Assembly: GCA_041612005.1 (NCBI GenBank)
Contig: JBFILW010000003.1
Location: 1-41,339 of the forward strand
Direction of reading: 5' to 3'
DNA length: 41,339 nucleotides
From: Gemmatimonadota bacterium
GTDB taxonomy: Bacteria; Gemmatimonadota; Gemmatimonadetes; Palauibacterales; Palauibacteraceae
The notes under the pieces are model-generated. The model had not been told where the DNA came from, ran no database searches, and was given only the letters and a program-made list of their open reading frames with translations. The translations under genes and the position numbers were made by a program. Positions 20,395-37,918 of the stretch are shown one piece after another (position 1 is the stretch's first letter; each line of letters opens with the position of its first letter).

Positions 20395-23300
20395 TCAGCG
20401 CCCCCCGACCTCTTCCGCAACCCTCCTCATGCTCGTATCAAAATCAGCATCGCGCAGGCTGACACCCGTCATCTCACGCAGATGGCTGACGATGTCGTCC
20501 ATGTTGTGGTGTAGATCCTGCAAGCGCTTGAGTTTTGGCTGCAGGCTACGCGAAGGTGTGCCTGTGTTTGTCAACCTGTTTATCTCATGGGTGAGTTTTT
20601 GTATCTCTGTCGAGAGCTTTTGTCGGGTCTCGCGTACGAATCCATCGTTGGTCAGGTACTCGTCGTCCTGATAGCAAGCGATGAAACGCCGGCCCTCGCT
20701 TCGCAGTCTGCCCAGCGATTCCAGTACCTCCTGGCCCACCCATTGGGATTGCAGGCTGTCTTTGCTCACGATGAGCAGTGTCGTCGCGGACGCGTCCATG
20801 TAACGTTTGATGCTGTCCACGATTGTTTCGCCAGGCCGAAGCTCGTTGTGGAACAGTATTGCCTCGACCTCATAGCTCGCGAGCGCTGACCGGACTTTTT
20901 CCGCCAAATCACGATCGTGCTCGTTGAATGAGATGAAGACGTTTGTCAAGACGGGCGCGTCCACGGCTTTGTCCAGCATGCCCGGCCAGAACGTCTTGAG
21001 CACCGGCGCCATGTCCACATCCAGTCCGGACGCAGGGCAGGTGAGCTTCTCGTCCCGTCCCGCCTCCCACAACGATGACAGCGAGTACCAGCGAGCATCG
21101 TCATGATCCCTACATCTGTCGCAGGGGCAGGGAATCTCGATCACCACGTTCAGGCTTCGACCGAACCGGTCGATGACATCCGTGATGTCAGCCAGAACTC
21201 GGGTTTCTGCCGCCACGCTGAGCACCCGGACCTCGACTTCGCTGCGGTCACGCAGAATCTCGACCGCAACGACTGCCGTCGGGTCCGATATGAGCAAACC
21301 ATTTGACCAGTACTGGCCATGGGTTTCGCCATTGCCCAGGGCTGAAATCAGTTGGAAGACGTGATGGCGTTCGAGGCGCTGAAAGCGATATCTGACATTC
21401 GGCCGCTTTGCCACGTCGCGCAGCAACGCAAAAGTCTTGGGCTCTGGTGGATCTGAAGGCAGATGCTGTGGAGCAATGATCTCTGGTGCGTCTCCACCCT
21501 CACGGAAGCAAACCTCCATGCCTATGAGCACCTCCGCCGCGTCGTTCGACATCAGCTCTCGAGCGCTCTCTTTGTTGATTCGACCGCGCGACTCCGGTTC
21601 GCGCCAGCCGTCGAGCTTCCTGAGGAGCCAGTCCAGCCAGCGAGGGTCGGTTGTGACGAACGACGTGCTCGTGTTCCGCGCAATCTGCCCGGTTTCGACG
21701 AGGTGGTCCGAAAACGCCATCAGCTCCGGCTGTGTCAGCCCGGCATCGACGCTGAGCCTGGTGAAAGCGGAACTGTCGAAGTTCCTTGTCTTGTCCCGCA
21801 ACTGCTCCAGCGCCATTTCGGCCCGGCGCCAGGGGAGCGGGATCATCCGCCCGGCACACGCTGCCAGCAGCGCATCGTGCTGAAGGCGGTCCTTTACCCA
21901 GCGAATCAGCCGTTTGACGTCGTCTTGCTCAGACAGGTCCAGCTCCAAAACATCGTAGTTGTAGCGTCCGCTCAGGGAGTCAATCAGCTCCACGTAGGCC
22001 GAGCTGTCGTACTGCCGTGGCAGCACGAGCAGCATGGGACTGTCGTTGCTTGCCTCTCTGAGCCGGTCGAGCATGTCCGCAAGCGGATTTCCCTCCGACT
22101 CCGGGCTGCTGGACGTCAATCCAGTCATTTCCGAAAGCAGAATGACGTAGGGAGCAGATGGCGTGAGTACGAAGCGTTCGCGAGTTGATCCGTCCAGGAA
22201 CGGGAGTTGCCAGATGGAGAGGGTGAGTGGCAGTCCGGAATCGAGACAAATATTCAGGTGTTCCTTGTCAGCGGCATACTTGCCCAGGAGCAGCTCTCCG
22301 AATCCGCTTTTTCCCTGGGCGGAACCTATGGCGACGAGCTTCATCTTCAGGTTGGGGACTCGACCTGGCTGAACGTGCTTGAGGAACTCTCTAACACGTG
22401 TGACGTCGTCAGCGAGATCCGGAGGAAGGTTCAGAAGCGGGTTCTCCGCAACCGAGAGCCGGACCAGGTTCTCGGCTCCAGCCAACCAGCGTGGAAGCTC
22501 CTCGATTTGATTGCCGTCGAGAACCAGGGTTTGCAGTGCGGCAAGGGAACGAAGCTCATCGGGCAGGCAGGTCAGCCCGTTGTGCGCGAGATCGAGCTCG
22601 ATGAGCTCCGCATAGTTACCTAGAAAGGACGGAAGACTCTCCAGCTTGTTGCCGGAGAGATTCAGCTTGGTCAGGCGCAGCGAGGCGAAGCTGTCGGGAA
22701 GCTGTGTGATTCGGTTGTTGCTGGCCGAAAGCTCACGCAGGCTTTCGATTGTACCCAATCCATCTGGGAAACCGGCGAGCCGGTTGTGGCTGGCGTCCAG
22801 CTTGACGAGGTTACTCAAGGCGCCAGACGCTTCCGGGAGTCGGTTCAGCTCGTTTCCCTGAACGTGCAGCTCCGTTAGTTGCTCGAGATTGCACAGTTCC
22901 TCGGGTAGCGAATCGAGATGGTTGTTTGCGAGACGCAGCTCTTTCAGATTCGACGAAGCCAAGGCGAATCGGGGCACCTCCTTCAATCCGCAATCACTCA
23001 GGCGGAGGATCTCGAGACCATCTGCGCCTCTCGGCGGGAACGACTCGACAGGATTACCCGACGCCGTGAAATCGTGCAGCGTCCCGGACCTCACAAGCTC
23101 AATGGGCAGTTCCGTCAGCCTGTTGCGTGCGACGTTGAGAGACTCGAGCGCCGGCGATGCACAGAGCCAGGCCGGCAACCTGGAAAGCTTGTTCCCGGCG
23201 AGCGAGACAGAGCGCACGTGGAGGGCATTACCCGGCTCACCGAGCTCTTCTATCTGATTGTCGTTTAGGTCGAGCGATTCGAGTGCAGGCCACGACGCGC

Positions 23301-23868
23301 CCGCTAGATCGAACCGCGAGAATTCGTTCGATGAGAGATCGAGCCGCTCGAGCGCCTTCCAGGACTCTTTCCCCGTCACGAGCTCGCCCACCTGATTGTG
23401 GGCCGCGTTCAGGACGCGCAGTTCCGGCTGATCGGCAACCGCTTGCGGGATGCTCTTCAGCCTGTTGTCGCTGACGTTCAGCTCGAAAAGCGAGTTCCGA
23501 TAGAAGAGCGCATCCGGCAACGTTTCCAGAAGATTCCTCGTGAGGTAGAGAAAGCGCAGGTTGGCCAGCTCGCAGATTTCACATCCCACCGATTTCAGCG
23601 AGTTTCCGCTTGCATTCAGGTAAACGAGTTGAGGCAGTCGTCCGAAGATACCGAGCTCCAGCGAATCGAAGCCCGAGAGCTCGAGCTTCACGAGGTTCAC
23701 GAACTCATCGATGTGATCTAGAAACGCTTCCAGGTTGTCCCGATAGAGAGCCAGCGCGATGAATTCGCGGGGGTCGTCTTCCGACGCATCGAAGTAACGC
23801 CAACGCGTGGACTTTACCGCGTACGGGTCACTCACCTTCGCCAGGCCATCGTTCCCAGCCTCGGTCAT
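20395..23868 (-). CDS. LRR - degenerate Roc/COR - TIR domain protein
   Basis: About 18-19 LxxLxLxxNxL repeats; MKLVAIGSAQGKS P-loop-like; COR-like region (DPRWL, YWSNGLL); CPCDRC...CP Zn motif; C-terminal TIR (VFISF...LRPGE...IVSKDSLQSQWVGQE). Start is 23868 or 23907. Confidence 0.8.
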   Translation of the reverse strand: MTEAGNDGLAKVSDPYAVKSTRWRYFDASEDDPREFIALALYRDNLEAFLDHIDEFVNLVKLELSGFDSLELGIFGRLPQLVYLNASGNSLKSVGCEICELANLRFLYLTRNLLETLPDALFYRNSLFELNVSDNRLKSIPQAVADQPELRVLNAAHNQVGELVTGKESWKALERLDLSSNEFSRFDLAGASWPALESLDLNDNQIEELGEPGNALHVRSVSLAGNKLSRLPAWLCASPALESLNVARNRLTELPIELVRSGTLHDFTASGNPVESFPPRGADGLEILRLSDCGLKEVPRFALASSNLKELRLANNHLDSLPEELCNLEQLTELHVQGNELNRLPEASGALSNLVKLDASHNRLAGFPDGLGTIESLRELSASNNRITQLPDSFASLRLTKLNLSGNKLESLPSFLGNYAELIELDLAHNGLTCLPDELRSLAALQTLVLDGNQIEELPRWLAGAENLVRLSVAENPLLNLPPDLADDVTRVREFLKHVQPGRVPNLKMKLVAIGSAQGKSGFGELLLGKYAADKEHLNICLDSGLPLTLSIWQLPFLDGSTRERFVLTPSAPYVILLSEMTGLTSSSPESEGNPLADMLDRLREASNDSPMLLVLPRQYDSSAYVELIDSLSGRYNYDVLELDLSEQDDVKRLIRWVKDRLQHDALLAACAGRMIPLPWRRAEMALEQLRDKTRNFDSSAFTRLSVDAGLTQPELMAFSDHLVETGQIARNTSTSFVTTDPRWLDWLLRKLDGWREPESRGRINKESARELMSNDAAEVLIGMEVCFREGGDAPEIIAPQHLPSDPPEPKTFALLRDVAKRPNVRYRFQRLERHHVFQLISALGNGETHGQYWSNGLLISDPTAVVAVEILRDRSEVEVRVLSVAAETRVLADITDVIDRFGRSLNVVIEIPCPCDRCRDHDDARWYSLSSLWEAGRDEKLTCPASGLDVDMAPVLKTFWPGMLDKAVDAPVLTNVFISFNEHDRDLAEKVRSALASYEVEAILFHNELRPGETIVDSIKRYMDASATTLLIVSKDSLQSQWVGQEVLESLGRLRSEGRRFIACYQDDEYLTNDGFVRETRQKLSTEIQKLTHEINRLTNTGTPSRSLQPKLKRLQDLHHNMDDIVSHLREMTGVSLRDADFDTSMRRVAEEVGGR

Positions 23869-24139
23869 GGCTCGCTCTTGGATGATCCGGAAGCAAGAGG
23901 ATAACATCGACCAGCGATTGCGAAGCCGATCTGTAGCCGGAATTCCAGCAACAGGCGTGCGGCGCTCCGCTCATTCTTCTGCAATAAACAGGACCGGCAG
24001 GACGAGCAACCGCTCTCTTTGCCGTGCGGCTCCGGTATCGGGAGGTGGCGAAATGATTGTCAGCTCTGCGAGGACTCGCGTGGCGCGGAGCAGATCGACC
24101 CACGCTGACGCAGCGACGGCGCCTTGACTCACGCTGTCG

Positions 24140-27120: not shown

Positions 27121-27927
27121 CTAGCCCGGGCGTATCTTCACCGGCCGCATCAGCCCGTCGGCGATGTCAAAGCAGACCTCAGAGTAGTGCAGCTCGTCGC
27201 AGAGGCACAGCCACAGCGTGTTCAGGATCGCGCTCGCCGCCATCAGATTGGCGAACAGGATCTGCGGGGCCGAGCCCGCGGCAGCCTCGACGCAGCTCAG
27301 CTCGCCGGGCGCCCTGTCGGCGGGCTCGCGGATCTCGGCGTGGTACCGGGACAGCGAGGGTGTGATGTCGACGCCATCGCGGCGGACGTATACCTGGCAG
27401 CCGCCGTAGGTGCCCCGCAGCAGCGTGCCGTCGGCGCGTTCCTCGATGCCATCGTTGCCGCCCGAGATCAGGCAGACGTCGCGCAAGTGCTCCGCGCAAT
27501 AGTCGGTCACCAGCTTGCGGGTGGCATGATTGTCGACGGCGAGCACGACGGTCTCACCGTCGTGAACGAGCCGCTCGATGTTCGATTCGGTGACGTGCTC
27601 CTCGATCGCGGCGATGGTGAGGGTCGACCCGGCCAGGAAACCGAGCAGCTCGTCGCGCGTGACCGCGGCCTTGTTGGCGTAGGTATCGAATACCATGCGC
27701 CCGGCATTGCCGGGCTCGAATGCGTCGCCGTCGACGAGCACGAAGCGGGCGGGCTGGCCGAGGGACGCCAGGAACAGGGCGCCGTAGCGGGCGACGATGC
27801 CACCCACGCCGCCAATGCCGAAGAGCTTGACCGTGCTGCCCGCCGCGAGGTACGGCACGAGCGCCGTGCCACGAGCGCGCTCGGTCACCGCGTCGCCGGC
27901 TCGCGGGCCGATGATGGGTGTCGTCAT
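27121..27927 (-). CDS. E1-like / ThiF-family adenylyltransferase (module B)
   Basis: GIGGVG; VDGDAFEPGNAGR; NKA; LAVDNHATRK; SGGND; candidate catalytic Cys in ELSCVE; PQILFAN. ATG overlaps the upstream stop (TGATG). Confidence 0.88.
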   Translation of the reverse strand: MTTPIIGPRAGDAVTERARGTALVPYLAAGSTVKLFGIGGVGGIVARYGALFLASLGQPARFVLVDGDAFEPGNAGRMVFDTYANKAAVTRDELLGFLAGSTLTIAAIEEHVTESNIERLVHDGETVVLAVDNHATRKLVTDYCAEHLRDVCLISGGNDGIEERADGTLLRGTYGGCQVYVRRDGVDITPSLSRYHAEIREPADRAPGELSCVEAAAGSAPQILFANLMAASAILNTLWLCLCDELHYSEVCFDIADGLMRPVKIRPG

Positions 27928-28688
27928 CAGTTCACTCCGTTGACGGGACCGGCGCCCGGGTACGGACCGTAGGCCGGATAGGCGGCCTGCTCGTGCTCGA
28001 GATCGATCGTGACGCACTCGAGCCAGGCTTGCGGAAAATCGGCGCTCCGGCGCTCGTAGGCCGCCATCGCCGCGCCGGGCTCGACCGTGAATCGCACGCC
28101 GTCGACGACGAACTCGCAGTGGAACTCCGGCGGCTCCTCGTCGATCCGCCCGACCACGATGTGCAGCCCGGCGCGGTAGGCTTCGTCCTCCTGATCGGTG
28201 TGCGACGCGTAAGCCGCGCCGTCGCCATGGCTGTGAATGGTGCCGATCGGGCTCTGCCCGGGGCCGAGGTCGTCACCGAGATCGTAGTGCACGTCGAGCG
28301 GATGGCGCCGCCCGGTCCAGCCCTCGCGCACCGTCGCGCGCTGCGCCGGGACGTGCACCTCGATGCGCCCCGCTTCCCGGTCCCAGACGAGCACCGCGGC
28401 GGCCTCGGCGCGGTGGCGTTCGAAGACCTCGTCGAAGAACCCGACGAGGCGCTCGATATCCGGCTGGGGGATCTGCGGGTAGTGCAGCCGCACCGTCTGG
28501 TCGTGCGGGGCGAGCTCGGTGGGCCAGGTGCGCGCACTTACGCAGCTCGAGAACAGCGGGTGGTTGCGACACAGGAACAGACCGTTCGAGCCAAGCACGT
28601 AGTAGACCGGCGCGTCCTCCGGCAATGGCATGTCGGCAGTCGTCTTGACGTAGATGGGCGTGACCAGGTTCTCGTCGGGGTGTCTCAT
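27927..28688 (-). CDS. JAB/MPN metallopeptidase (PRTRC protein A-like, module B)
   Basis: YVLGSNGLF N-terminal domain; catalytic Glu in AEAAAVLVW; GTIHSH.....YASHTD JAMM motif; GLHIVVG. ATGA overlap with the upstream E2. Confidence 0.88.
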   Translation of the reverse strand: MRHPDENLVTPIYVKTTADMPLPEDAPVYYVLGSNGLFLCRNHPLFSSCVSARTWPTELAPHDQTVRLHYPQIPQPDIERLVGFFDEVFERHRAEAAAVLVWDREAGRIEVHVPAQRATVREGWTGRRHPLDVHYDLGDDLGPGQSPIGTIHSHGDGAAYASHTDQEDEAYRAGLHIVVGRIDEEPPEFHCEFVVDGVRFTVEPGAAMAAYERRSADFPQAWLECVTIDLEHEQAAYPAYGPYPGAGPVNGVN

Positions 28689-29533
28689 CGGGGCACCTGC
28701 TGCGGCTGTTTCCCGTGGTTGAACACGAGCCGGGCGATGTCGCTCGCGCACGCGACGCGCGGATTCTCGCCCGCCCGGCACTCGGCGATCCGCGCCGCCA
28801 TCTGTCGGACGCTCAGCTCGACCGGCAGCCACGGCACCTCGAGCACGAACAGGGGCGCCGCTCGCGTCGCGTCTTCCCACGCCTCGATGGTGGCCACGCG
28901 CGGATCCACGCCCCGAGACTCGCTGAACCAGCTGGTGAGCTCGTGGTGCTCGCTGCTGTAATTGAAGCCGGTCTCGAAAAGGCAGCTGAGCAGCGCCTGC
29001 AACGCGCAGCGCATGCGCTCGCCGTTGTCCCGGGTCGCCTGGAGCTTCTCGAAGTCCAGGTGCTGGGTGCAGATCCACGACAGCGGTCTGTTCCGCCTGT
29101 CGGGCCCGAACTTCGAGCAGTTGAGCAGGGCCGGGTAGCACAGCGCATCGTCGAGGCTCTGCATCGGCTCGTTTCGAAAGAAGCACTCGTTGGCGCCGGT
29201 GAGCTGTGGCCGCCCGCGCCGGTCGGCCGCGAAGACGGCGAACACGATCACGTAAGGCAGTGCGATGGTCACGTCGCGGTAAGTCGTGCCCTTGCCGTAG
29301 GGCGCCGGCGAGTCCTCGGCGATCCAGCGCAGGCGGTGCACCCGGGGCGATGTCTGGTGCACCCACACGGTCAGCGGGCCGCTGCGGAACTCGCGCTTGA
29401 GCCCGTCGGGGTACACGGCGTCGAGCGGGCGCGGCGAGAGCAGCTCCACCAGGCGCTCGACCTCGAGCGAGGCCGTCTGGCCCTCGGGCGAGGTCGCAAT
29501 CACCTGCGAGTGATCGATGGTGACGGTTTCCAC
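28685..29533 (-). CDS. E2-like (UBC fold) protein, Prok-E2_D / PRTRC protein B-like (module B)
   Basis: IALPYVIVF, CFFRNEP..SLDD.L.YPALLN...WIC (candidate catalytic Cys) and FETGFN. Position between Ubl and JAB supports the call. Confidence 0.65.
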   Translation of the reverse strand: METVTIDHSQVIATSPEGQTASLEVERLVELLSPRPLDAVYPDGLKREFRSGPLTVWVHQTSPRVHRLRWIAEDSPAPYGKGTTYRDVTIALPYVIVFAVFAADRRGRPQLTGANECFFRNEPMQSLDDALCYPALLNCSKFGPDRRNRPLSWICTQHLDFEKLQATRDNGERMRCALQALLSCLFETGFNYSSEHHELTSWFSESRGVDPRVATIEAWEDATRAAPLFVLEVPWLPVELSVRQMAARIAECRAGENPRVACASDIARLVFNHGKQPQQVPR

Positions 29534-29539
29534 GCCCGG

Positions 29540-29866
29540 CTACCTCAGGCAGTGCGCCCGGCTCGGGTCGCCCTTCTCGCCGGCACGCATGACGAAGGAA
29601 AGCGTCTGACCGACGCGGATCCGCGTACTCTCGTCGACCGGATCGCCGTCGAGGATGGCCTGGCTGGCCGGGCCGATGTCGAACCGGTCCTGGTAGCGCT
29701 CGCGCACCGCCTGCACGGTCATCCCGGCGACCGGCAAGGTTTCGGCATAAGGGCCGTGCGTCACGGTGGCGACGCCCGCGGGCGCCGCGTCGGCGGCCAG
29801 CGAATCCCCAAGCCCAGCGGGCCCCGACAGGGTGTCCAGAGTTGGCCGCAATTCGCGCTCGCTCAT
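29540..29866 (-). CDS. Ubiquitin-like beta-grasp protein with C-terminal extension (Ubl-B)
   Basis: GMTVQAVR...DI...AILDG..V.....I..GQTLSF..RAGEKG, then a 9-aa tail DPSRAHCLR. RBS GAGGAG. Confidence 0.8.
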   Translation of the reverse strand: MSERELRPTLDTLSGPAGLGDSLAADAAPAGVATVTHGPYAETLPVAGMTVQAVRERYQDRFDIGPASQAILDGDPVDESTRIRVGQTLSFVMRAGEKGDPSRAHCLR

Positions 29867-29907: not shown

Positions 29908-31653
29908 TCAGGCGACCCGTTCGATCTCGTAGGGCTGGACCGCGCGCGGGGCGGGTCGGTGCAGGCTCGCAACGCGCACCCCGTCGGGGAGATCGAGATA
30001 CTGGTGGGCGTTGGCCTCGGTGAGCTGGTCGACCGTGGCGCGCGCCACCGCCTCGATCGCGCCGAGCAGCGTTGCCCGGTCGAGTGTCGCGGGTGCGTTG
30101 TCCGCCGCCTCGCGCAGGCAGCCGGCCTCCGCGGCGCGCTGCACGGCGAGGTCGATGTGCGCCGCGGTCAGGAAATCGGCGACCGACTTCGCGACCCGCG
30201 AGGTCGAACCCGCGAACGTGAGCTCGATGAGCGGCTGCCGGGCGTGCGCAGGCCCATGCACCCAGCTCGACACCTCGGCGACCAGCCGCTGGCGGGCCTC
30301 CGGCTCCGTCTCGCCAGGCTCACACGCGATCGGCCGGCCGACGAGCTGCTTGTCGAGCACGGGCATGAACTCGCGGCGCGTGAGGCGCCCGAACCGCTCG
30401 ACGGATCCCCCGACGCGGCGCAGGAACGCCGGGTCGACGAGGTGGGCGACGTTGGTCGTCGCGACGAAGAGGATCAGGCGATCACTGACGCACGCGTGCG
30501 TCGCGTCGAGCCGCTGCAACATCGTCGTCAGGATGCGGTCGTGGACCGGCTCCCCGCCGCGCCCGCGGGCGACCCCGTCGGCTTCCTCGAGGATCACGAG
30601 CACCGGCAGCCGAAAGCGGCGGCCGTCACCCGTCACGAACTCTTCGTCGGCCAGCTGCTCCATCTCATCGAAGAACCGGGCCAGGTTCTTGTCCGAATCG
30701 CCGAGCCACTTGCTGAGGAACTCTGCCGGGCGCAGCCGCATCACGCGCGGCGGCAGCGCTTCGACCGGCACCCCGGTGTGCTCCGACATGAGCTCGTAGA
30801 GCCCCCGCCACAGGGCGAGGATGCTGAAGCTCTTGCCCGAGCCGCTGACGCCTGCGAGCAGCCGCGTGACGCTCCGGCGGAGCCGCCAGCGCCGGCGGAG
30901 CCCCGGATTCTCGAGCTCCTGGCGGACGATGGCGAGCAGCTCCGCGATGTAGGGTGGCGGCGCGCCGAGGTCCCGCGCGGCGTCGACCTCCGGCACCGGC
31001 ACGCGCGCCAGGAAGCGGTAGTGTGAATGCCCGTCGGCAGGCGGCAGCGCGTCGAACGCCATCATTTGCCGCGGGCTCACCAGCAGTGTGGCGCCGGGCG
31101 CGACGTCTCCGGCCTCGATGCGCCGGGTGAGCGCGGCGGCGGCAAAGTAGACGGCCCGCGCGTCGCCGCGCCCCGTCACCTCCACGCGGCCGCCGTCGAG
31201 CACGAGTTCCAGGCGGGCTTCCTCACCGGTCTCGGGCGGCGCCGGATCGCGGAACAGGAGCGCCTTGCCGCTGGTCTCCAGGAACACCGTGTCCCCGCGC
31301 TGCAGGAGATCGGCCAGCGCCCGGTCCGGGATCGGGACGGACGCCGAAGAGCCGTCGTCCAGCAGCACCCTGGCGCGCGGCGCGCCGCCGTCCGCCTGGT
31401 GCAGCGCCAGGAAGATCGCCGTGCGCAGCGCCCCCCGCTCGAGATCCTGTCGCACGGCCTCCAGCTCGGCGAGCTTCACCTCGTAGTTCGCGGCGCTGTT
31501 TCCCGCGGCGGCGGCCTCGAGCACCTTCGCGATGACGCTGGATGACGCCTCGCTGTCGTCCATGCACAGCTGCGCGAGTAGCTGCTTGCGGTGCCCGGCG
31601 GGCACGTCGGCGTCGGTGAGCACGCTCAACATCTTGTCTTTTCGTCTGGCCAT
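29908..31653 (-). CDS. ARC/Mpa-like (proteasomal-type) AAA+ ATPase
   Basis: N-terminal helical/coiled-coil region, two OB-like segments (LQRGDTVFL, APGATLLV), Walker A GVSGSGKS, pore loop EFLSKWLGDSDK, Walker B VILEEAD, and ATTN...VDPAFLRR second region of homology. Confidence 0.8.
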   Translation of the reverse strand: MARRKDKMLSVLTDADVPAGHRKQLLAQLCMDDSEASSSVIAKVLEAAAAGNSAANYEVKLAELEAVRQDLERGALRTAIFLALHQADGGAPRARVLLDDGSSASVPIPDRALADLLQRGDTVFLETSGKALLFRDPAPPETGEEARLELVLDGGRVEVTGRGDARAVYFAAAALTRRIEAGDVAPGATLLVSPRQMMAFDALPPADGHSHYRFLARVPVPEVDAARDLGAPPPYIAELLAIVRQELENPGLRRRWRLRRSVTRLLAGVSGSGKSFSILALWRGLYELMSEHTGVPVEALPPRVMRLRPAEFLSKWLGDSDKNLARFFDEMEQLADEEFVTGDGRRFRLPVLVILEEADGVARGRGGEPVHDRILTTMLQRLDATHACVSDRLILFVATTNVAHLVDPAFLRRVGGSVERFGRLTRREFMPVLDKQLVGRPIACEPGETEPEARQRLVAEVSSWVHGPAHARQPLIELTFAGSTSRVAKSVADFLTAAHIDLAVQRAAEAGCLREAADNAPATLDRATLLGAIEAVARATVDQLTEANAHQYLDLPDGVRVASLHRPAPRAVQPYEIERVA

Positions 31654-31655
31654 CG

Positions 31656-32780
31656 TCAGCACCCCTCCGGGTCGAAGTCTTCGAGCACGTGGTACCCGCG
31701 TTCGAGCAGCCGCCCGTCGCGCAGCCCGAACAATCCCTGGTCGCGCTCGTGCCGCGCGTTCAGCCCGAAGATATGGCAGAGCTGCCAGGGCTGACGGCGG
31801 AACACGGCCCGGTTCCAGTTCCAGTCGTCGAGGGAAACGAACACGGAGCTCCGCGTGCACACGGTGCGTCTTGCGCAGTCCGGGCAGGGCGGCGCACCGT
31901 CGGCGGGAATGAAGTTGTGGCCGTGGCACTGGCCGACGATACGCAGACCGCGGGTCGCGGCGTGACGCTGCCTCGCCTCCATCACGGCTCGGATGCGCGT
32001 CCAGGTGCGTGCGGAGAAGGCAAGCGAGTAGGCGGTCTGATCCGCGTCCTGCGCCTCGAGCACCTCGACCACGACGGCGAAGAAATCGCCGCTCACGGGA
32101 CAGCTGCACAGGAAACCGACGAGCACCCCGCCGGTCTCGACGGGTGGGTGATGTTCGGCGCCGCGGCGCGCGCAGCGCTCCGCGGCGGCAAGGGCCGCGG
32201 CGGTGTAGAAGACGCCGTACGGGCTCGGCGTGGCGGCCGCGGGGCCGACCGGCCTGGCACGGCGAAGGAGCGGCGCGAGCTCGATCGCGAGCGGTTCCAA
32301 TGGTCGCGTCTGCACCTCGGGCAGGCTCACGTCGAGCGGCCTACCTGCACCGGCGCCCGCTGCTTCGTCGCACGCGATGTGGTAATAGAAGACGTCTCTC
32401 GCCTGCAGTTTCCCCTCGCCGGCCATGCGCTCGGCGGCACGCCGCGCAACGTGCTCGAGGCTGAACACGGAAAAGCGACGCTGCACGGTGCGCCCGTCTG
32501 CCCCGGGCGACTCCAGGAAGTAGCCCGTGCATGCCTGCCCGGAACCGGCGCGCTCCGGCCGCAGCCGGACCGGCACCTCATCGAGCGCGGTCCCGGTGTC
32601 GCCGTTGCGCAGCGACTCTTCGAGCCACAACTCGCTGACCGCGTCGACCAGGTCGCTCGGGCCGACCGGCTCGCGCGCCAGCTCGGGGCCGTCCTGCGCG
32701 AGGCGGAGCACGATCGCGAGCAGGGGCGAGGCGGCGCGCTCCGCGCCGCCTCGTGCGCCGATGGTGCCGGGTTGCGTCAC
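31656..32780 (-). CDS. JAB/MPN metallopeptidase with N-terminal domain and Cys-rich insert (module A)
   Basis: VETGGVLVG (catalytic Glu); IVGQCHGH; insert CPDC..C; FVSLDD; F..PWQ. GTG start. Confidence 0.78.
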   Translation of the reverse strand: MTQPGTIGARGGAERAASPLLAIVLRLAQDGPELAREPVGPSDLVDAVSELWLEESLRNGDTGTALDEVPVRLRPERAGSGQACTGYFLESPGADGRTVQRRFSVFSLEHVARRAAERMAGEGKLQARDVFYYHIACDEAAGAGAGRPLDVSLPEVQTRPLEPLAIELAPLLRRARPVGPAAATPSPYGVFYTAAALAAAERCARRGAEHHPPVETGGVLVGFLCSCPVSGDFFAVVVEVLEAQDADQTAYSLAFSARTWTRIRAVMEARQRHAATRGLRIVGQCHGHNFIPADGAPPCPDCARRTVCTRSSVFVSLDDWNWNRAVFRRQPWQLCHIFGLNARHERDQGLFGLRDGRLLERGYHVLEDFDPEGC

Positions 32781-32786
32781 GGCGGA

Positions 32787-33077
32787 TCAGCCGAGATGGG
32801 TCCGCGGCGTAATCGCGACCCGGGCGTCCGGGACGATCTGATCGCCGATGGCCACGTCGTCGTCCAGGTAGACGCTGGTCGACTCGTCGCGCAGCGCCCA
32901 CGGCACGTTGTCGGGCAACGACATCCGGTCGGCGACCGTGCGTGCCACGGCGGATGCCGGCAGGCTCGACTGCAGGTCCCCGACCTCGAGCTCGTTGGTG
33001 CCGGTCACGTCGGTGGCGATGAAGCGGAAGGCGTCCTGTGCGCCCGGTCCGGCGGCGGTCGTGTCGAGTGCGGTCAT
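32787..33077 (-). CDS. Ubiquitin-like beta-grasp protein ending in Gly (Ubl-A)
   Basis: 96 aa; RBS AGGAG. Strand-strand-helix-strand pattern (FRFIATDVTG, VARTVADRMSLP, WALRD, LDDD..IGD, VAITP) ending in THLG-stop; operon context supports the call. Confidence 0.72.
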   Translation of the reverse strand: MTALDTTAAGPGAQDAFRFIATDVTGTNELEVGDLQSSLPASAVARTVADRMSLPDNVPWALRDESTSVYLDDDVAIGDQIVPDARVAITPRTHLG

Positions 33078-33108: not shown

Positions 33109-33918
33109 CTATGCCCAGCCGGGTTGAAGCGTGGCGTCCGCGCATGCATGCGTGACGTCCACGAGAAACTGAACGGGCTCGAGCACCCAGGCGACCACCC
33201 AGCGCAAGGCGTCGACCGCGATCGGCAGAAGGGCCTCGAGCACCGGCGGCGGGGCGCCCGTGAGATCGATCTCCGCCCGGATGCCCCCGTCCACGAGCCC
33301 GACGCGAGCCAGGCGCCACCGCGACTGGGCGTCGGTCAGGACCCGGCCGAGCCATGCCCGCCGCCCGGCGTCGAGGCCATCGGGGCAGGGGGCGACGGGG
33401 AACTCGACGGCGAGCCGCTGCCGTGAGTGAACGAGCCTGCCTTGCCGCGCAAGGCCGCTGGCACGGACGGTCAGGGCGTCGTCGGGGAGCCACCCCCGAA
33501 CCGTTTCCAGCGGCGGCGGGGACCAATCGCCGAATGCGACTCTTCCCGGGGCGACGCTTCCCGGGCGGGTGGCGCGCGCCCACGCGACGACATCGGCGAA
33601 CACGTTCTGGCCGCCGTCGTCGGCCCGCATGGCGTTGCCGACCCGCAGCGAAGCGAGGGGCACCTCGAAGACGCTGCGCGAGCGCTGCAGGCCCCGCTCG
33701 GCCAACCAGCGCCACAGTCCGGGCTCACCGAGATGGGCGTGCAGTGGCGAGCTGACCACCTGCGAGCACTTCGGCTCGAGAACGGCCCAGCCGGCGGCGA
33801 CGATGAGCCTCATGTCGTCCGACTCGTAGCCGCCCCGGGCGCGGCAGGGTCGAAACCCGATTGTCGCCAGATCTCCGAGCCGGGCATCGGGGGCCGGTGC
33901 GGCCGCAGCCGGGTTCAA
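33109..33918 (-). CDS. Hypothetical protein in the ubiquitin-like operon
   Basis: TTG start overlaps the E2 stop (TTGA) behind GGGAG and the ORF fills the gap. The C-terminal half is weakly reminiscent of YbjN/T3SS-chaperone folds (impression only). Confidence 0.6.
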   Translation of the reverse strand: MNPAAAAPAPDARLGDLATIGFRPCRARGGYESDDMRLIVAAGWAVLEPKCSQVVSSPLHAHLGEPGLWRWLAERGLQRSRSVFEVPLASLRVGNAMRADDGGQNVFADVVAWARATRPGSVAPGRVAFGDWSPPPLETVRGWLPDDALTVRASGLARQGRLVHSRQRLAVEFPVAPCPDGLDAGRRAWLGRVLTDAQSRWRLARVGLVDGGIRAEIDLTGAPPPVLEALLPIAVDALRWVVAWVLEPVQFLVDVTHACADATLQPGWA

Positions 33919-34604
33919 CGCCGCGCTCCCTGCTCGTGCTCCGGATCGGCGAGGAATGGCGCCCGACTGAGCGGTATCCGCCCGGGGTTGTGCTGCCACC
34001 ACCTGGCCGCCTCGACGTTCAGGACGCCGGCGGCGTCGGCTGCGTCGATCTGAAACGTCTGCATCGAGAGCGCGGCGTAGGCCATCAGGATCAGCTCCTT
34101 GACCCGCACGCCGGCGGGCAGCGTGTCGCCAAGGCACAGGCGCTGGACGGGTGGCGCGGAAACCTGTGCGTGCCACACGGGCTGCGGGCTCAGGATCGTG
34201 ATGAACGCGTAGCCGGGCTGCGCCTCGAGCAGGGCGGCGAGTGGATAGCACAGGCCGAGCACCGCGCCGCCGACGATCTCGATGTCGCCGTCGCCCGGCT
34301 CCCGCGTCGCCACCGGCACCCGCAGCTCGCAGAGCGCCTTGAGCTCGTCCCCGAGTGAGAGCTGATGGACCGTCAGCCGGCGCGGCGCCCGCTCACAGAG
34401 CGCCAGCAGCTCCCTGGCTTCGGCCGACTTGCGCCTCACCCAGAAGCTCGAGCCGGCGGCGCTCGCGCAGGCCACGCCGAGCAGACGCCGATTGCGCGGG
34501 CTGAGGCGCTGGCGGCCCAGCCCGACGAGCCCGTCGGGATGGCGGACCTCGCCCTTCGCGGGCGTGCGGCGTCTCACTTCGTTCGCTTCGTGTCCGGATC
34601 GCAT
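33915..34604 (-). CDS. E2-like (UBC fold) conjugating enzyme (module A)
   Basis: RBS GGAGG. YP...P motif; PVWHAQVS....RLCLG (variant of HPN...IC with Cys retained); C-terminal LNVEAARW...PL. Confidence 0.78.
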   Translation of the reverse strand: MRSGHEANEVRRRTPAKGEVRHPDGLVGLGRQRLSPRNRRLLGVACASAAGSSFWVRRKSAEARELLALCERAPRRLTVHQLSLGDELKALCELRVPVATREPGDGDIEIVGGAVLGLCYPLAALLEAQPGYAFITILSPQPVWHAQVSAPPVQRLCLGDTLPAGVRVKELILMAYAALSMQTFQIDAADAAGVLNVEAARWWQHNPGRIPLSRAPFLADPEHEQGARR

Positions 34605-34618
34605 GATTGACCTCCATC

Positions 34619-35860
34619 TCACTCCTGGCTGAACAGCGCCGCGCGCTCGCCCTGCTGGACGACGACCCAGCGCGGTGTCTCGCTGCAGAGATGGCCGAGG
34701 GGGCGGTCGAGCAGCGGCCGCAACACCTCTTCCGGCGCCCGGCGGTGGGCGTGCAGAGGGTGGGCCACGAGCTCGAGCCTGCAGCTTCGGCAGCGCCCGA
34801 TCGGCGCCGCCTGCGGCACGAACCGGTCGAACGGCTGCGTGTGGCCGTTGCCGCAGATCGCGGTCGCGACGAAGCACATGTGCTCGACCTGGAAGATGCT
34901 GCGCCGGCTCGACTCGAAGCCGGCGTCGCGAAGCAGCCTGGCCGGCGTGCAGCTCGGCAGCGGCGCCGAGGCGCTGGCCCGGGCCCAGGTCACGTGCTCC
35001 ACCGGACAGTTCGGGTTTCGCAGGAGCGGCGAGATCACCGTCCGATGGGTGTACCCGTTGTACTCGAGCATCGTGTCGGCGACCGGGGCGCCCAGGCCGA
35101 GCGCGCCGCGCAGGACTTGCATCGTCGCGAGATCGGCAGCGAGCGCGCACAGGGCGCTGACGCTGCTGGTCGGCGCGGACGACGTGCTGGCGGCCGGCCG
35201 GGCATCCGCCGCGGCTTCGCAGCTGAAACGGGTCTCCCGGTTGACCAGACTCCACTCGGCGGCGCCATACAGGCAGACTCCGCAAGGCGAATCCGGGCCG
35301 GCATTGGAGAAGCAGCGCACCTGCGCCGTGAGCGACTCGCCGTGGACGGCCGCGTGGATCAGCAGCATCTCGAGGTGGACGGCGAGCTGCGCCGCCGCCA
35401 CTTCGGCCCGCAGGTTGTCGGTGGCGAGGACCATGGCGTCGACGCCACGGAAGTCGGCCACGTCCAGATCCTCCAGCCGGCCGATGCGGTAGAAGACGCG
35501 CGTGCCGGGGCTGATCTGCTTGCAGAACCGTGCGGTGCTGCCCGCCTTGTGCTCGCCGACGTCGTCGACGGCGATCGGCTGGGTCAGCAGGCTCTCCGGC
35601 TTGTAGATGGCCGGGTCGACGAGCAGCAACCTCGCGACACCCATTCGCGCCAGCGCGATGGCGACCCCGCGCCCGACCGCGCCTTGCCCCAAGACCACGA
35701 CGACCAGCTCGCGGACCGCCGCGGCGGCTTCTCCGGGCGCGGTGCCGATGAGCACCGGCATGCGTGCATCGCGCGCCGGCATCCAGCCGGGGATCGAATC
35801 CGCCGGGATGATCATCTCGGCGAAGCGGCCATGCGCCGCGTCATTCGACGACGGGCACAT
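34619..35860 (-). CDS. E1-like / ThiF-MoeB family enzyme with C-terminal Zn-binding extension (module A)
   Basis: VLGQGAVG; LLLVD; GEHKA; LATDN; PCGVCLY; candidate catalytic Cys in RFSCE; NPNCPVEH; extra CGNGH...CRSC. Start uncertain. Confidence 0.85.
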   Translation of the reverse strand: MCPSSNDAAHGRFAEMIIPADSIPGWMPARDARMPVLIGTAPGEAAAAVRELVVVVLGQGAVGRGVAIALARMGVARLLLVDPAIYKPESLLTQPIAVDDVGEHKAGSTARFCKQISPGTRVFYRIGRLEDLDVADFRGVDAMVLATDNLRAEVAAAQLAVHLEMLLIHAAVHGESLTAQVRCFSNAGPDSPCGVCLYGAAEWSLVNRETRFSCEAAADARPAASTSSAPTSSVSALCALAADLATMQVLRGALGLGAPVADTMLEYNGYTHRTVISPLLRNPNCPVEHVTWARASASAPLPSCTPARLLRDAGFESSRRSIFQVEHMCFVATAICGNGHTQPFDRFVPQAAPIGRCRSCRLELVAHPLHAHRRAPEEVLRPLLDRPLGHLCSETPRWVVVQQGERAALFSQE

Positions 35861-36467
35861 CGTCCCAGCGCTCCTCCAGGATCATCGGCCGCTTGCACGC
35901 CGCGCACTCGCGCAGAAGCGTGGCGCATTCCAGCACGTTGCTGCCGTCCTCACCGGGCTCCGATCGCCAGTGCACCGGTCCCCAACCACATGGGCAGACA
36001 TAGACCTCGTCCCGGGCGTCCACCGGCCCGCGGCACAGGGGACACTCGCGCCCGACCATCTTGGCGGTCGCGGGGGCGACGGGCGGCTTGGTGAAGCTCG
36101 CCACGTGCAGCAGCCGACCGCGGACCAGCATCTGGTCTCCACTACGCAAGAACCCGAGCGGCGGCATCGGCGTACCGTTGACGCGCGGTGCGCCTTCGCA
36201 CGCGGGCGATTGCTGCACCAGCACCAGCGGTTGTGGGCCGGCGTCGACGACCTCCAGCACCATCTTCGCGTCACCGCGCACCGAGCGCGCGAGCAGCTCG
36301 GGCACCCCGGCGGCACCGAAGCGCAGGTAGCGCGGTGCGCGAAGGAGCTCGAGCGCCCTGAGCGGGGCGTCGCCGCCGTCGGCGCTCTCGGTGACCAGGA
36401 AAAGGCGCTGCGCGCCCGGGTGGCGGCGCCGCGAGCGGTCTCCCCGCGTGTCGATCCTATCTGTCAT
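35841..36467 (-). CDS. FHA-like domain plus prokaryotic RING-like finger (candidate E3)
   Basis: RVNG......LRSGDQMLV resembles the FHA C-terminal strands. It is followed by CPLC-x11-CPC-x5-H-x14-C-x6-CAAC. Start is 36467 or 36494. Confidence 0.65.
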   Translation of the reverse strand: MTDRIDTRGDRSRRRHPGAQRLFLVTESADGGDAPLRALELLRAPRYLRFGAAGVPELLARSVRGDAKMVLEVVDAGPQPLVLVQQSPACEGAPRVNGTPMPPLGFLRSGDQMLVRGRLLHVASFTKPPVAPATAKMVGRECPLCRGPVDARDEVYVCPCGWGPVHWRSEPGEDGSNVLECATLLRECAACKRPMILEERWDDVPVVE

Positions 36468-36494
36468 GCGAACTTCTGTAGCCTTTCTTGACAC

Positions 36495-36823
36495 AATTGT
36501 TTACATTCGCGCTCGCCGTGACTCGGTGGCACGCCAGGCTCGAGGAGACTTTTTCCGAGCACGCTAGCACGCAAACTGTCTAAGGCAAGCATGAAATTGT
36601 CGGATTAACAGGGTGTTACAGATATGGTCTCGATTCTCCGAGGATTTTCCAGCTTGTCGCAAAGGGATGCGAACGTGCGCTTCGGATTGCGGCATTCAAC
36701 ATCACAATTTTCAGAAACAAACAATAACTGATCACATGGGACACCAATTTCGAGTCCGCCTGCGTAAACTGTGACGTACTCGCTGCGGGCAATATTCCGG
36801 GCCGCACGAGGAGGATAGAAGCC
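36495..36823. promoter_or_regulatory. AT-rich divergent promoter region
   Basis: Markedly AT-rich non-coding gap between the operon and the regulator. A short palindrome ACAATTGT lies at its left edge (36493-36500). Exact promoters were not resolved. Confidence 0.5.
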
Positions 36824-37918
36824 ATGACTAGAAAGCACGTCGGCAAGAGGCAGCCGCGACCGTCGAAGGCGAAGGCCGGATGCGACGAACGCCTCGTCAT
36901 CGACGACGTCGAGGTGATGTCGGCCATCTGTCGATGGTTCTGCGAGGGCAAGACGGCGCAGCAGATGGCCGATCTCGCGAACGAACACCTGCCGCTACGC
37001 ACCCCGATGACGCGGGAGGTGCCCTACAAGCTGCTGCAGAAGGCGGGGCGCATGGGTTGGTTGCATTTCCGTCCCCCGCCGCACGAGAGCCACCGCGAAC
37101 GGCTGCGCGAGCGCTACCACTGGCTGCAGGAGCTGAAGGTCGTGCACAGCGTCGCGCTCGCCGACGTGGCTCGCGAGACCGCAAGAGAGCTGTTGCGGAT
37201 GGCCCGCTCGTGGGCGGGTAAAGAGCTGCATATCGGCATTGCCGGCGGCCACTCCATGCGGGAGCTGGCGAGGGCGCTCGCGCGCGAGCTCTGCGAGCCG
37301 AAGAAGAACCTGCCGGCGACCATCTGGTTTCACGCGCTCGCGGGTGGCTTCGACCCCGGAGACCCGACCACCAACCCGAACGCCTTCTTCAACTATTTCA
37401 GTCAGGATGACATCGTCGACGTCGAGATCCGATTCCACGGTTTGAGCGCACCCGCGATCGTGCCGTCCGACAAGAGCTCCGCCTTCGAGGAAGTCGGCGA
37501 CATCAGGCTGGCGATGGATGCAGTGAAAGACGTCGACATCTTCGTCACCTCCGGCGCCAGCTGGCGGGATCGAGACAGCGCGCTGCGCAAGCGCATGCAG
37601 GACTCGGAGGGGTCGTTCGACGTGCTCGAGAAGGAGGGTTGTGTCGGCGACATGCTGTGGCGCCCGCTCTCCCGCAGCGGCCCGATCAAGACGGCGACCC
37701 TGCTCCGTGCAATGACGCTCGTCGACCTGTCTGACCTGCCGACGCTCATCGCAAACGGGAAGCGGGTGCTGCTGATGGTGTCACCGTGCGGGTTGTGCCA
37801 CGCGCCGAAGGGCGACCTGCTCGACTGCGTCCTGAACCTCGAAGAGCCCTTGATCACCGACCTGGTGGTCGATTCGCGGTCTGCGGGTCAGATGCTCGCA
37901 CGCGAAGGCGGCGCGTGA
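36824..37918 (+). CDS. SorC/DeoR/LsrR-family sugar-binding transcriptional regulator
   Basis: N-terminal HTH (FCEGKTAQQMAD...MTRE..YKLLQKA...GWL); IGIAGGHSM; SAPAIV; DIFVTSG; GCVGD; ITDLVVD. RBS GGAGG. Confidence 0.8.
   Translation: MTRKHVGKRQPRPSKAKAGCDERLVIDDVEVMSAICRWFCEGKTAQQMADLANEHLPLRTPMTREVPYKLLQKAGRMGWLHFRPPPHESHRERLRERYHWLQELKVVHSVALADVARETARELLRMARSWAGKELHIGIAGGHSMRELARALARELCEPKKNLPATIWFHALAGGFDPGDPTTNPNAFFNYFSQDDIVDVEIRFHGLSAPAIVPSDKSSAFEEVGDIRLAMDAVKDVDIFVTSGASWRDRDSALRKRMQDSEGSFDVLEKEGCVGDMLWRPLSRSGPIKTATLLRAMTLVDLSDLPTLIANGKRVLLMVSPCGLCHAPKGDLLDCVLNLEEPLITDLVVDSRSAGQMLAREGGA

What the first reader, a model, noticed from the sequence alone, without database searches (positions are those of the whole stretch)
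35841..36494. FHA-like plus RING-like protein leading the operon: candidate bacterial E3
Seen: a VNG...L..GD FHA-type segment followed by eight potential Zn ligands (C,C,C,C,H,C,C,C). Known: FHA-RING is the architecture of the eukaryotic E3s RNF8, CHFR and Dma1, and characterised bacterial Ubl systems act without a RING E3. The FHA phosphothreonine-binding GR and SxxH motifs are not evident, so this domain may be a phospho-independent adaptor (inference).
Basis: partly seen in the sequence, partly recalled or inferred. Interest (0 to 1): 0.72.

Follow-up and report, generated by a model that had tools for sequence, protein, structure and literature searches.

The report
Bacterial FHA-RING candidate ubiquitin-type ligase
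The first gene of a conserved bacterial operon encodes a small soluble protein that joins an FHA-like fold to a zinc RING finger, making it the likely ligase (E3) of a complete ubiquitin-like tagging system wired to a proteasome-type unfolding motor; its activity has not been tested.

The parts
35841..36467 (-). FHA-RING protein gene (208 aa from ATG 36467; the ORF is open up to GTG 36494; stop codon at 35841-35843)
   Evidence: P0001 called as 208 aa; GC3 frame
36087..36419 (-). FHA-like beta-sandwich domain (residues 17-127)
35886..36053 (-). C4HC3 RING-like zinc domain (residues 139-194; ligands C142 C145 C158 C160 H166 C181 C188 C191)
35844..35885 (-). Conserved C-terminal tail (residues 195-208; G200 in 111/138, P205 in 125/138), probably packed on the FHA domain
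   Evidence: Tail pLDDT is 90-94 in the full-length model but 63-64 in the domain-only model.
34619..35860 (-). E1 (ThiF-family adenylating enzyme, 413 aa); its ATG overlaps the end of the RING gene by 20 nt
   Evidence: Pfam ThiF 3.9e-24; directly follows the RING gene in 26/26 loci
33915..34604 (-). UBC-type E2 (229 aa) with invariant catalytic Cys157; the HPN motif reads HAQ here
   Evidence: A3 alignment. Orthologue L011 hits UQ_con at 6.8e-4. Two homologues carry a precomputed PF00179 hit..
33109..33918 (-). Conserved ~269-aa protein, CesT/YbjN-type chaperone-like (lead only); TTG start overlaps the E2 stop
   Evidence: Atlas lead for the L011 orthologue; detected in 17 of 19 loci that reach this position
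32787..33077 (-). Ubl (96 aa) ending ...THLG at the stop
   Evidence: C-terminal Gly, or Gly plus 1-6 residues, in 9 loci; L011 orthologue hits YukD at 1.2e-6
31656..32780 (-). JAB/JAMM peptidase (374 aa)
   Evidence: PADLOC JAB 3.2e-4; L011 orthologue hits Prok-JAB 2.1e-6
29908..31653 (-). Mpa/PAN-like AAA+ ATPase with a proteasomal-ATPase OB domain (581 aa)
   Evidence: Pfam AAA 9.5e-11 and Prot_ATP_ID_OB_C 1.9e-4; TIGR03689 1.5e-19, below its cut-off
27121..29866 (-). Second, PRTRC-like tagging module. It holds a small ORF ending GEKG plus a tail (29540-29866), a 282-aa protein with conserved Cys (28685-29533), a Prok-JAB/PRTRC_A-like gene (27927-28688) and a ThiF-family gene (27121-27927).
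   Evidence: syntenic in L002, L022 and L054

Best explanation
The gene encodes a soluble two-domain protein that most likely acts as the RING-type E3 (ligase or adaptor) of the operon's ubiquitin-like conjugation system. Shown here: an FHA-fold N-domain, a C4HC3 RING-fold C-domain with eight near-invariant zinc ligands, and a fixed position as the first gene before E1, a UBC-type E2, a CesT/YbjN-like protein, a Gly-ended Ubl, a JAB peptidase and an Mpa/PAN-like AAA ATPase. Inferred, in order. E1 adenylates the Ubl C-terminal Gly and passes it to E2 Cys157. The RING domain docks E2~Ubl through the usual RING face: a hydrophobic residue between the first two Cys, Pro after the seventh ligand, and a short helix after the sixth. 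The FHA-like domain lacks the phosphate-binding residues, so it holds a target or a system partner without needing phosphate. JAB trims or recycles the Ubl. The AAA ATPase then engages the tagged proteins.
Confidence: 0.6

Rival explanations
1. The protein is a non-catalytic scaffold or regulator. Its RING-like zinc domain and FHA-like domain hold system components together (E1, Ubl, the CesT/YbjN-like protein or the AAA ATPase) without stimulating transfer from the E2.
For: There is no conserved linchpin residue after the last Cys, and the spacing between ligands 5 and 6 is atypical. The two domains appear to be rigidly packed, with the tail docked on the FHA domain. Characterised bacterial Ubl systems work without an E3.
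Against: The best structural matches are E2-bound RING-H2 ligase domains. Residues at the usual E2-contact positions are conserved. The gene always sits with E1 and E2.
Confidence: 0.17
2. The protein is a phospho-dependent reader-ligase like RNF8, CHFR or Dma1. Its FHA domain would bind phosphothreonine made by the host's Hanks-type kinases and direct Ubl tagging to phosphoproteins.
For: The architecture is the same: FHA at the N-terminus, RING at the C-terminus. The genome holds 13 Pkinase matches and no canonical FHA domain. R95 (102/138) and R57 (51/138) could in principle bind phosphate.
Against: The three canonical phosphate and peptide contacts are not conserved: the Arg of GR, the Ser/His of SxxH and the Asn of TNG. 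The TNG Asn aligns to G92, a variable column. hhalign aligns only the C-terminal 32 columns to canonical FHA. None of the 26 loci shows a kinase gene within the conserved block.
Confidence: 0.1
3. The protein is itself the main target or sensor of the pathway. It would be auto-tagged and handed to the AAA ATPase, so that it works as a switch rather than a ligase for other proteins.
For: Many RING E3s modify themselves (general knowledge). The protein is small and is encoded first in the operon, and no dedicated substrate gene is evident.
Against: There is no direct evidence. The reading is compatible with, and not exclusive of, E3 activity.
Confidence: 0.08
4. The Cys/His cluster is a C1- or PHD-like ligand-, lipid- or peptide-binding module unrelated to E2 function.
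Against: RING-H2 ligases rank above C1 and PHD in all three searches. Prok-RING_1 is the commonest Pfam hit (59 vs 35 of 138). The operon context is E1/E2/Ubl.
Confidence: 0.05

Closest known systems
Prok-RING_1 (Pfam PF14446): RING fingers of prokaryotic Ubl operons, predicted by Burroughs, Iyer and Aravind, Mol Biosyst 2011 (recalled; the paper is not held)
   Same: The ligand pattern is C4HC3, which the review PMC11354881 (passage read) states is typical of prokaryotic RINGs. The neighbourhood holds E1, E2, JAB and a YukD-like Ubl. 59 of 138 members hit the model, and one orthologue passes its cut-off.
   Different: The window protein scores only 15.1 bits against a 29.1-bit cut-off. As I recall the Pfam text, bacterial Prok-RING_1 proteins carry transmembrane helices. 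This family is soluble and fused to an FHA-like domain, and its operon also carries an Mpa-like ATPase and a second tagging module.
Caldiarchaeum subterraneum Ub/E1/E2/small-RING/Rpn11 cascade (PMC5654768; only the search listing and the start of the abstract were seen)
   Same: One operon holds E1, E2, a RING E3, a JAB-type peptidase and a Gly-ended modifier. It is the only prokaryotic RING cascade that I know to have been reconstituted.
   Different: It is archaeal, its RING is a small stand-alone protein without an FHA domain, and it has no Mpa-like ATPase or second tag module in the operon.
Eukaryotic FHA-RING E3s RNF8, CHFR and Dma1 (recalled)
Characterised bacterial conjugation systems: type II CBASS Cap2, Bil, Bub (PMC11601603 introduction read; PMC11601596 passages)
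   Same: They share the E1, E2, Ubl and peptidase logic and a sparse, patchy distribution. The E1 gives weak hits to PADLOC E1-E2 models.
   Different: Those systems have no RING E3 and no AAA unfoldase. No PADLOC model matches the RING, E2, Ubl or CesT/YbjN-like proteins.
Pup-Mpa/ARC-PafA/Dop pupylation system
   Same: The AAA ATPase has the proteasomal-ATPase OB domain and resembles TIGR03689. In 8 of the 12 loci that extend past the ATPase, two Pup_ligase genes follow it. In L011 a 73-aa ORF ending GGE lies between them.
   Different: In this window the Pup module is replaced by a PRTRC-like module, and the genome, which is 81.5% complete, shows no Pup ligase. Its only Proteasome-family match lies on another contig.

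Membership tests
RING finger / Prok-RING_1 (PF14446) | Eight Zn ligands in the cross-brace order (C4HC3 in prokaryotic forms) | tested here: met
   C142, C145, C158, C160, H166, C181, C188 and C191 are kept in 135-138 of 138 sequences and are invariant in 16/16.
RING finger / Prok-RING_1 (PF14446) | Score above the Pfam gathering cut-off | tested here: not met
   The window protein scores 15.1 bits against 29.1 (E 0.023). The L011 orthologue scores 30.5 bits and passes. 59 of 138 relatives hit at E<=0.01.
RING finger / Prok-RING_1 (PF14446) | Fold superposes on solved RING domains | tested here: met
RING finger / Prok-RING_1 (PF14446) | Canonical spacing of 2-3 residues between ligands 5 and 6 | tested here: not met
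   H166 and C181 are 14 residues apart, and the stretch between them varies in length (gaps at positions 170-175). 46 of 138 members have Cys directly after the His.
RING finger / Prok-RING_1 (PF14446) | Linchpin Arg/Lys directly after the last Cys | tested here: inconclusive
   The window has K192. Across the family the column is G24, Q23, R14 and S14 among the commonest, and R at +2 occurs in 54 of 138.
RING finger / Prok-RING_1 (PF14446) | Binds an E2 and stimulates Ubl transfer; binds two Zn | not testable with these tools
This needs biochemistry.
FHA domain (PF00498) | Eleven-strand beta-sandwich fold | tested here: met
FHA domain (PF00498) | Pfam model hit | tested here: not met
   No PF00498 hit at E<=0.1. 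PF00498 is not among the 25 families that most of the 138 members hit. Searching the whole genome with PF00498 gave 0 matches.
FHA domain (PF00498) | Phosphothreonine-binding residues (Arg of GR, Ser/His of SxxH, Asn of TNG) | tested here: not met
   No conserved Arg, Ser or His appears in the loops at 51-57 and 60-68. The canonical TNG Asn aligns to G92, a variable column.
FHA domain (PF00498) | C-terminal VNG...L..GD motif | tested here: met
   N97 is kept in 136/138 and D111 in 137/138. hhalign to 18 canonical FHA domains gives prob 86%, E 4.6e-6 over 32 columns.
Eukaryotic FHA-RING E3s (RNF8/CHFR/Dma1) | Specific kinship beyond the shared domain order | tested here: inconclusive
PRTRC system (TIGR03735-03738), for the second module | Scores above the NCBIfam cut-offs | tested here: not met
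   PRTRC_A scores 38.1 bits against 101.8, and PRTRC_ThiF 27.6 against 144.75. The small ORF and the 282-aa protein have no hit. The module is therefore 'PRTRC-like' only.

The most novel reading that the evidence does not exclude
This is the E3 of a complete bacterial 'ubiquitin-to-unfoldase' pathway: E1, UBC E2, RING E3, JAB DUB, a Gly-ended Ubl and a proteasome-type AAA ATPase. Its FHA-RING architecture arose independently of RNF8/CHFR. The phospho-independent FHA-like domain would read a mark laid down by the operon's second tagging module (Pup-like or PRTRC-like). The protein would then be a tag-reader/tag-writer linking two conjugation systems, in the way STUbLs link SUMO to ubiquitin.
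Probability: 0.15. Interest if true: 0.88.

Novelty: new variant of a known kind. Interest (0 to 1): 0.62.

Why it matters
The bacterial ubiquitin-like systems characterised so far (type II CBASS, Bil, Bub) work without an E3 and without an unfoldase. This family offers a compact, soluble, roughly 200-residue RING candidate together with its cognate E1, E2, Ubl and DUB in one operon, so it suits in vitro reconstitution. It could show whether RING-catalysed transfer exists in bacteria. It could also show how an FHA fold works as a phosphate-independent substrate adaptor. Finally, it could show whether Ubl tagging feeds a proteasomal-type ATPase outside archaea and eukaryotes. The constant pairing with a second tag system (Pup-like or PRTRC-like, 12 of 12 complete loci) is unexplained and could be tested.

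Tried and rejected
- **Papers not held.** The 2011 Burroughs/Iyer/Aravind paper and the 2012 Burroughs review are not held. What they say about FHA fusions or AAA linkage could not be checked, and their text or supplements may already describe this operon.
- **Literature searches.** Seven searches and passages of PMC7159879, PMC11354881, PMC11601596, PMC11601603 and PMC2588565 gave no description of a bacterial FHA-RING fusion or of a RING/E1/E2 operon with an Mpa-like ATPase.
- **The idea of a second E2.** The gene after the E2 looks like a CesT/YbjN chaperone instead (Atlas lead, feature score 0.85, structure TM 0.65-0.85 by row). The 282-aa protein of the second module gave hhalign prob 0.3% against the E2 profile, from a shallow 3-sequence alignment.
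- **Known defence systems.** PADLOC has no model for the RING protein, E2, Ubl or chaperone-like protein.
- **Plasmid carriage.** tblastn against 72,556 plasmids found nothing.
- **Promoter and terminator scan.** The scan of 36300-36900 found no site.
- **Broad alignments for locus scans.** A2 and A4 were too diverse for the search for related loci, so I used the narrower A1 and A5.
- **Earlier notes.** Place and sequence look-ups in earlier findings gave nothing.

Full report
**Observation.** One search lists an ORF at 35841..36494 on the minus strand, 217 aa from a GTG. Public gene calls for the identical protein use the ATG at 36467, giving 208 aa (P0001), and I use that numbering. The sequence holds R95-V-N-G98...L107..G110-D111, followed by C142-x2-C145-x12-C158-x-C160-x5-H166-x14-C181-x6-C188-x2-C191. 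GC3 frame analysis shows the ORF is coding. It is the first of eleven tightly packed minus-strand genes running from 36467 to 27121, with overlaps or short gaps between them.

**Size of the family.** A word-indexed search found 9 relatives. The exhaustive HMMER search of 1.84 billion cluster representatives found 430 at E<=0.001, 142 at E<=1e-10 and 1 at E<=1e-30, mostly about 190-235 aa. I aligned 138 of them as A2, made up of 6 and 132 of the 149 further hits. I left out 17 short hits of 124-184 aa and three close relatives. The eight ligand columns are kept in 135-138 of 138. In the N-domain N97 (136), G98 (121), L107 (125), D111 (137), E72 (123), L48 (126), P42 (115) and H121 (108) are conserved. 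All eight ligands are also invariant in 16 RING-domain sequences taken from DNA of separate loci (A6). They are kept, together with N97, G98, L107 and D111, in the divergent orthologues of the Pup-type operons (A9).

**N-terminal domain.**
- Pfam finds no FHA hit in this protein. PF00498 is not among the 25 families most often hit by the 138 members, and it finds nothing in the whole genome.
- The AF2 model built on A2 is confident (pLDDT 89.7, pTM 0.81).
- Foldseek's top PDB rows are FHA domains.
- A profile-profile comparison with 18 canonical FHA domains from related genomes (A7) aligns only the C-terminal 32 columns (prob 86%, E 4.6e-6). It shows that VNG corresponds to the second, structural NG of FHA domains. 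The canonical S-T-N-G loop aligns to A89-(C)-E-G92-A-P, a variable stretch.
- The loops where GR and SxxH would lie (51-57 and 60-68) have no conserved Arg, Ser or His.
- The fold is therefore FHA, but the phosphothreonine pocket is not conserved across the family.
- The genome does hold 13 Pkinase matches, so phospho-signalling exists in the host. No kinase lies in the conserved block.

**C-terminal domain.**
- The window protein gives only weak hits to Prok-RING_1 (E 0.023, 15.1 bits against a 29.1-bit cut-off) and zf-RING_2 (E 0.087).
- Across the family, 59 of 138 hit Prok-RING_1 at E<=0.01 (best 6.1e-7) and 35 hit C1_2. The L011 orthologue passes the Prok-RING_1 cut-off (30.5 bits).
- The family profile's best PDB hits are the RING-H2 ligases Arkadia, ARK2C/RNF165 and RNF24, plus a KMT2D PHD finger (E 0.008-0.07).
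- Folded alone on A6 (pLDDT 83.9), the domain gives RING-H2 ligases as its seven best VIA matches: RNF12 6.2, ZNRF1 5.7, RNF165 5.2, Ark2C 5.1, RNF13 5.0, RNF38 4.8 and Praja-1 4.6. C1 domains follow at about 4.1.
- The Foldseek list for the domain is dominated by RING E3 domains, with a few PHD fingers. Its E-values are weak (best 0.054) and TM scores are 0.53-0.62.
- These scores are modest, as expected for about 60 residues, but three methods agree on RING first.
- Positions expected at an E2-contact face are conserved: residue 144 is V/L/I in 110 of 138, P143 in 103 and P189 in 96.
- Two features are not canonical. Ligands 5 and 6 are 14 residues apart, and there is no conserved linchpin residue after the last Cys (K192 in the window; the family column is mixed).
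- The C4HC3 order matches what the review PMC11354881 says of prokaryotic RINGs (passage).
- The conserved tail at 195-208 is confident only in the full-length model (pLDDT 90-94 against 63-64). This suggests it packs on the FHA domain.

**Context.** I collected 26 loci:
- the window;
- two species-representative genomes (L001 and L002);
- four genomes out of 400 others sampled in the window's phylum;
- 11 metagenome contigs;
- eight of the 11 further genomes that matched among 300 others sampled in L002's phylum.

L018 and L019 are near-identical to each other. With tblastn the gene order is always RING-E1 (26/26). It then continues as far as each contig reaches:

| Position after RING-E1 | Loci with it / loci that reach it |
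|---|---|
| E2 | 21/21 |
| CesT/YbjN-like protein | 17/19 (the two misses have a ~1 kb gap at that place) |
| Ubl | 18/18 |
| JAB | 15/15 |
| AAA | 14/14 |

The parts are as follows.
- **E1** is a ThiF-family enzyme.
- **E2** is UBC-like. The catalytic Cys is invariant in 14/14 sequences. HPN is present in the Pup-type loci and in two of the five metagenome loci read (L012, L015), and reads HAQ in the window. UQ_con hits appear.
- **Ubl** ends in Gly, or in Gly plus 1-6 residues. The L011 orthologue hits YukD.
- **AAA ATPase** has the proteasomal-ATPase OB domain and resembles TIGR03689.

All 12 loci that extend beyond the ATPase carry a second tagging module. Four have a PRTRC-like set: a small ORF ending GEKG, a 282-aa protein with conserved Cys, a Prok-JAB and a ThiF (window, L002, L022, L054). 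Eight have two Pup_ligase genes, and in L011 a 73-aa ORF ending GGE lies between them. The window's genome is 81.5% complete. It shows no Pup ligase, and its only Proteasome-family match lies on another contig.

**Mechanism.** Shown: the two folds, the ligand conservation, the fixed operon position, and the presence of every other part of a conjugation cascade. Inferred: the RING docks E2~Ubl and promotes transfer, the FHA-like domain recruits a target or partner without phosphate, JAB processes or recycles the Ubl, and the ATPase acts on conjugates. I give this reading 0.6. The rivals are a non-catalytic scaffold (0.17), a phospho-dependent reader-ligase (0.10), a self-tagged sensor (0.08) and a C1/PHD-like module (0.05). 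The direct in silico test, a complex with the E2, could not be run.

Noticed in passing
window 20395-23907 (-): A 1170-aa protein with leucine-rich repeats, a COR-B domain and a C-terminal TIR domain (Pfam TIR_2 7.5e-14) lies about 3 kb past the end of the operon. It sits in a stretch of lower GC3 at 20-27 kb. It is an NLR-like immune-type protein, which hints at a defence island.
   Followed up: partly
window 27121-29866 (-); also L002, L022, L054: A second tagging module always travels with the first. In four loci it is PRTRC-like: a small ORF ending GEKG(+tail), a 282-aa protein with four invariant Cys and no family, a Prok-JAB and a ThiF. In eight other loci two Pup ligases take its place. 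Why the two tag systems are coupled is unexplained.
   Followed up: partly
L011 17767-17988 (+): A 73-aa ORF ending ...QEGGE lies between the two Pup_ligase genes.
   Followed up: partly
whole genome G000: There are 13 Hanks-type Pkinase matches but no PF00498 FHA match in a genome of 2.76 Mb that is 81.5% complete.
   Followed up: no
window 36824-37918 (+): A divergently transcribed SorC-like gene (Pfam Sugar-bind 6.9e-9) is conserved next to the operon in L001 (87.5% identity). In three of the first four Pup-type loci a sigma-54 activator sits upstream instead.
   Followed up: partly
window 33109-33918 (-): The conserved gene between the E2 and the Ubl resembles CesT/YbjN-type peptide-binding chaperones (Atlas lead for the L011 orthologue). 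It could be the substrate or partner adaptor of the system.
   Followed up: partly
G415 (genome of L001), contig C216:6112-6429: A second, weaker match to the FHA-RING profile (E 2.0e-9, positions 86-194) occurs in the same genome as L001. Its context was not examined.
   Followed up: no
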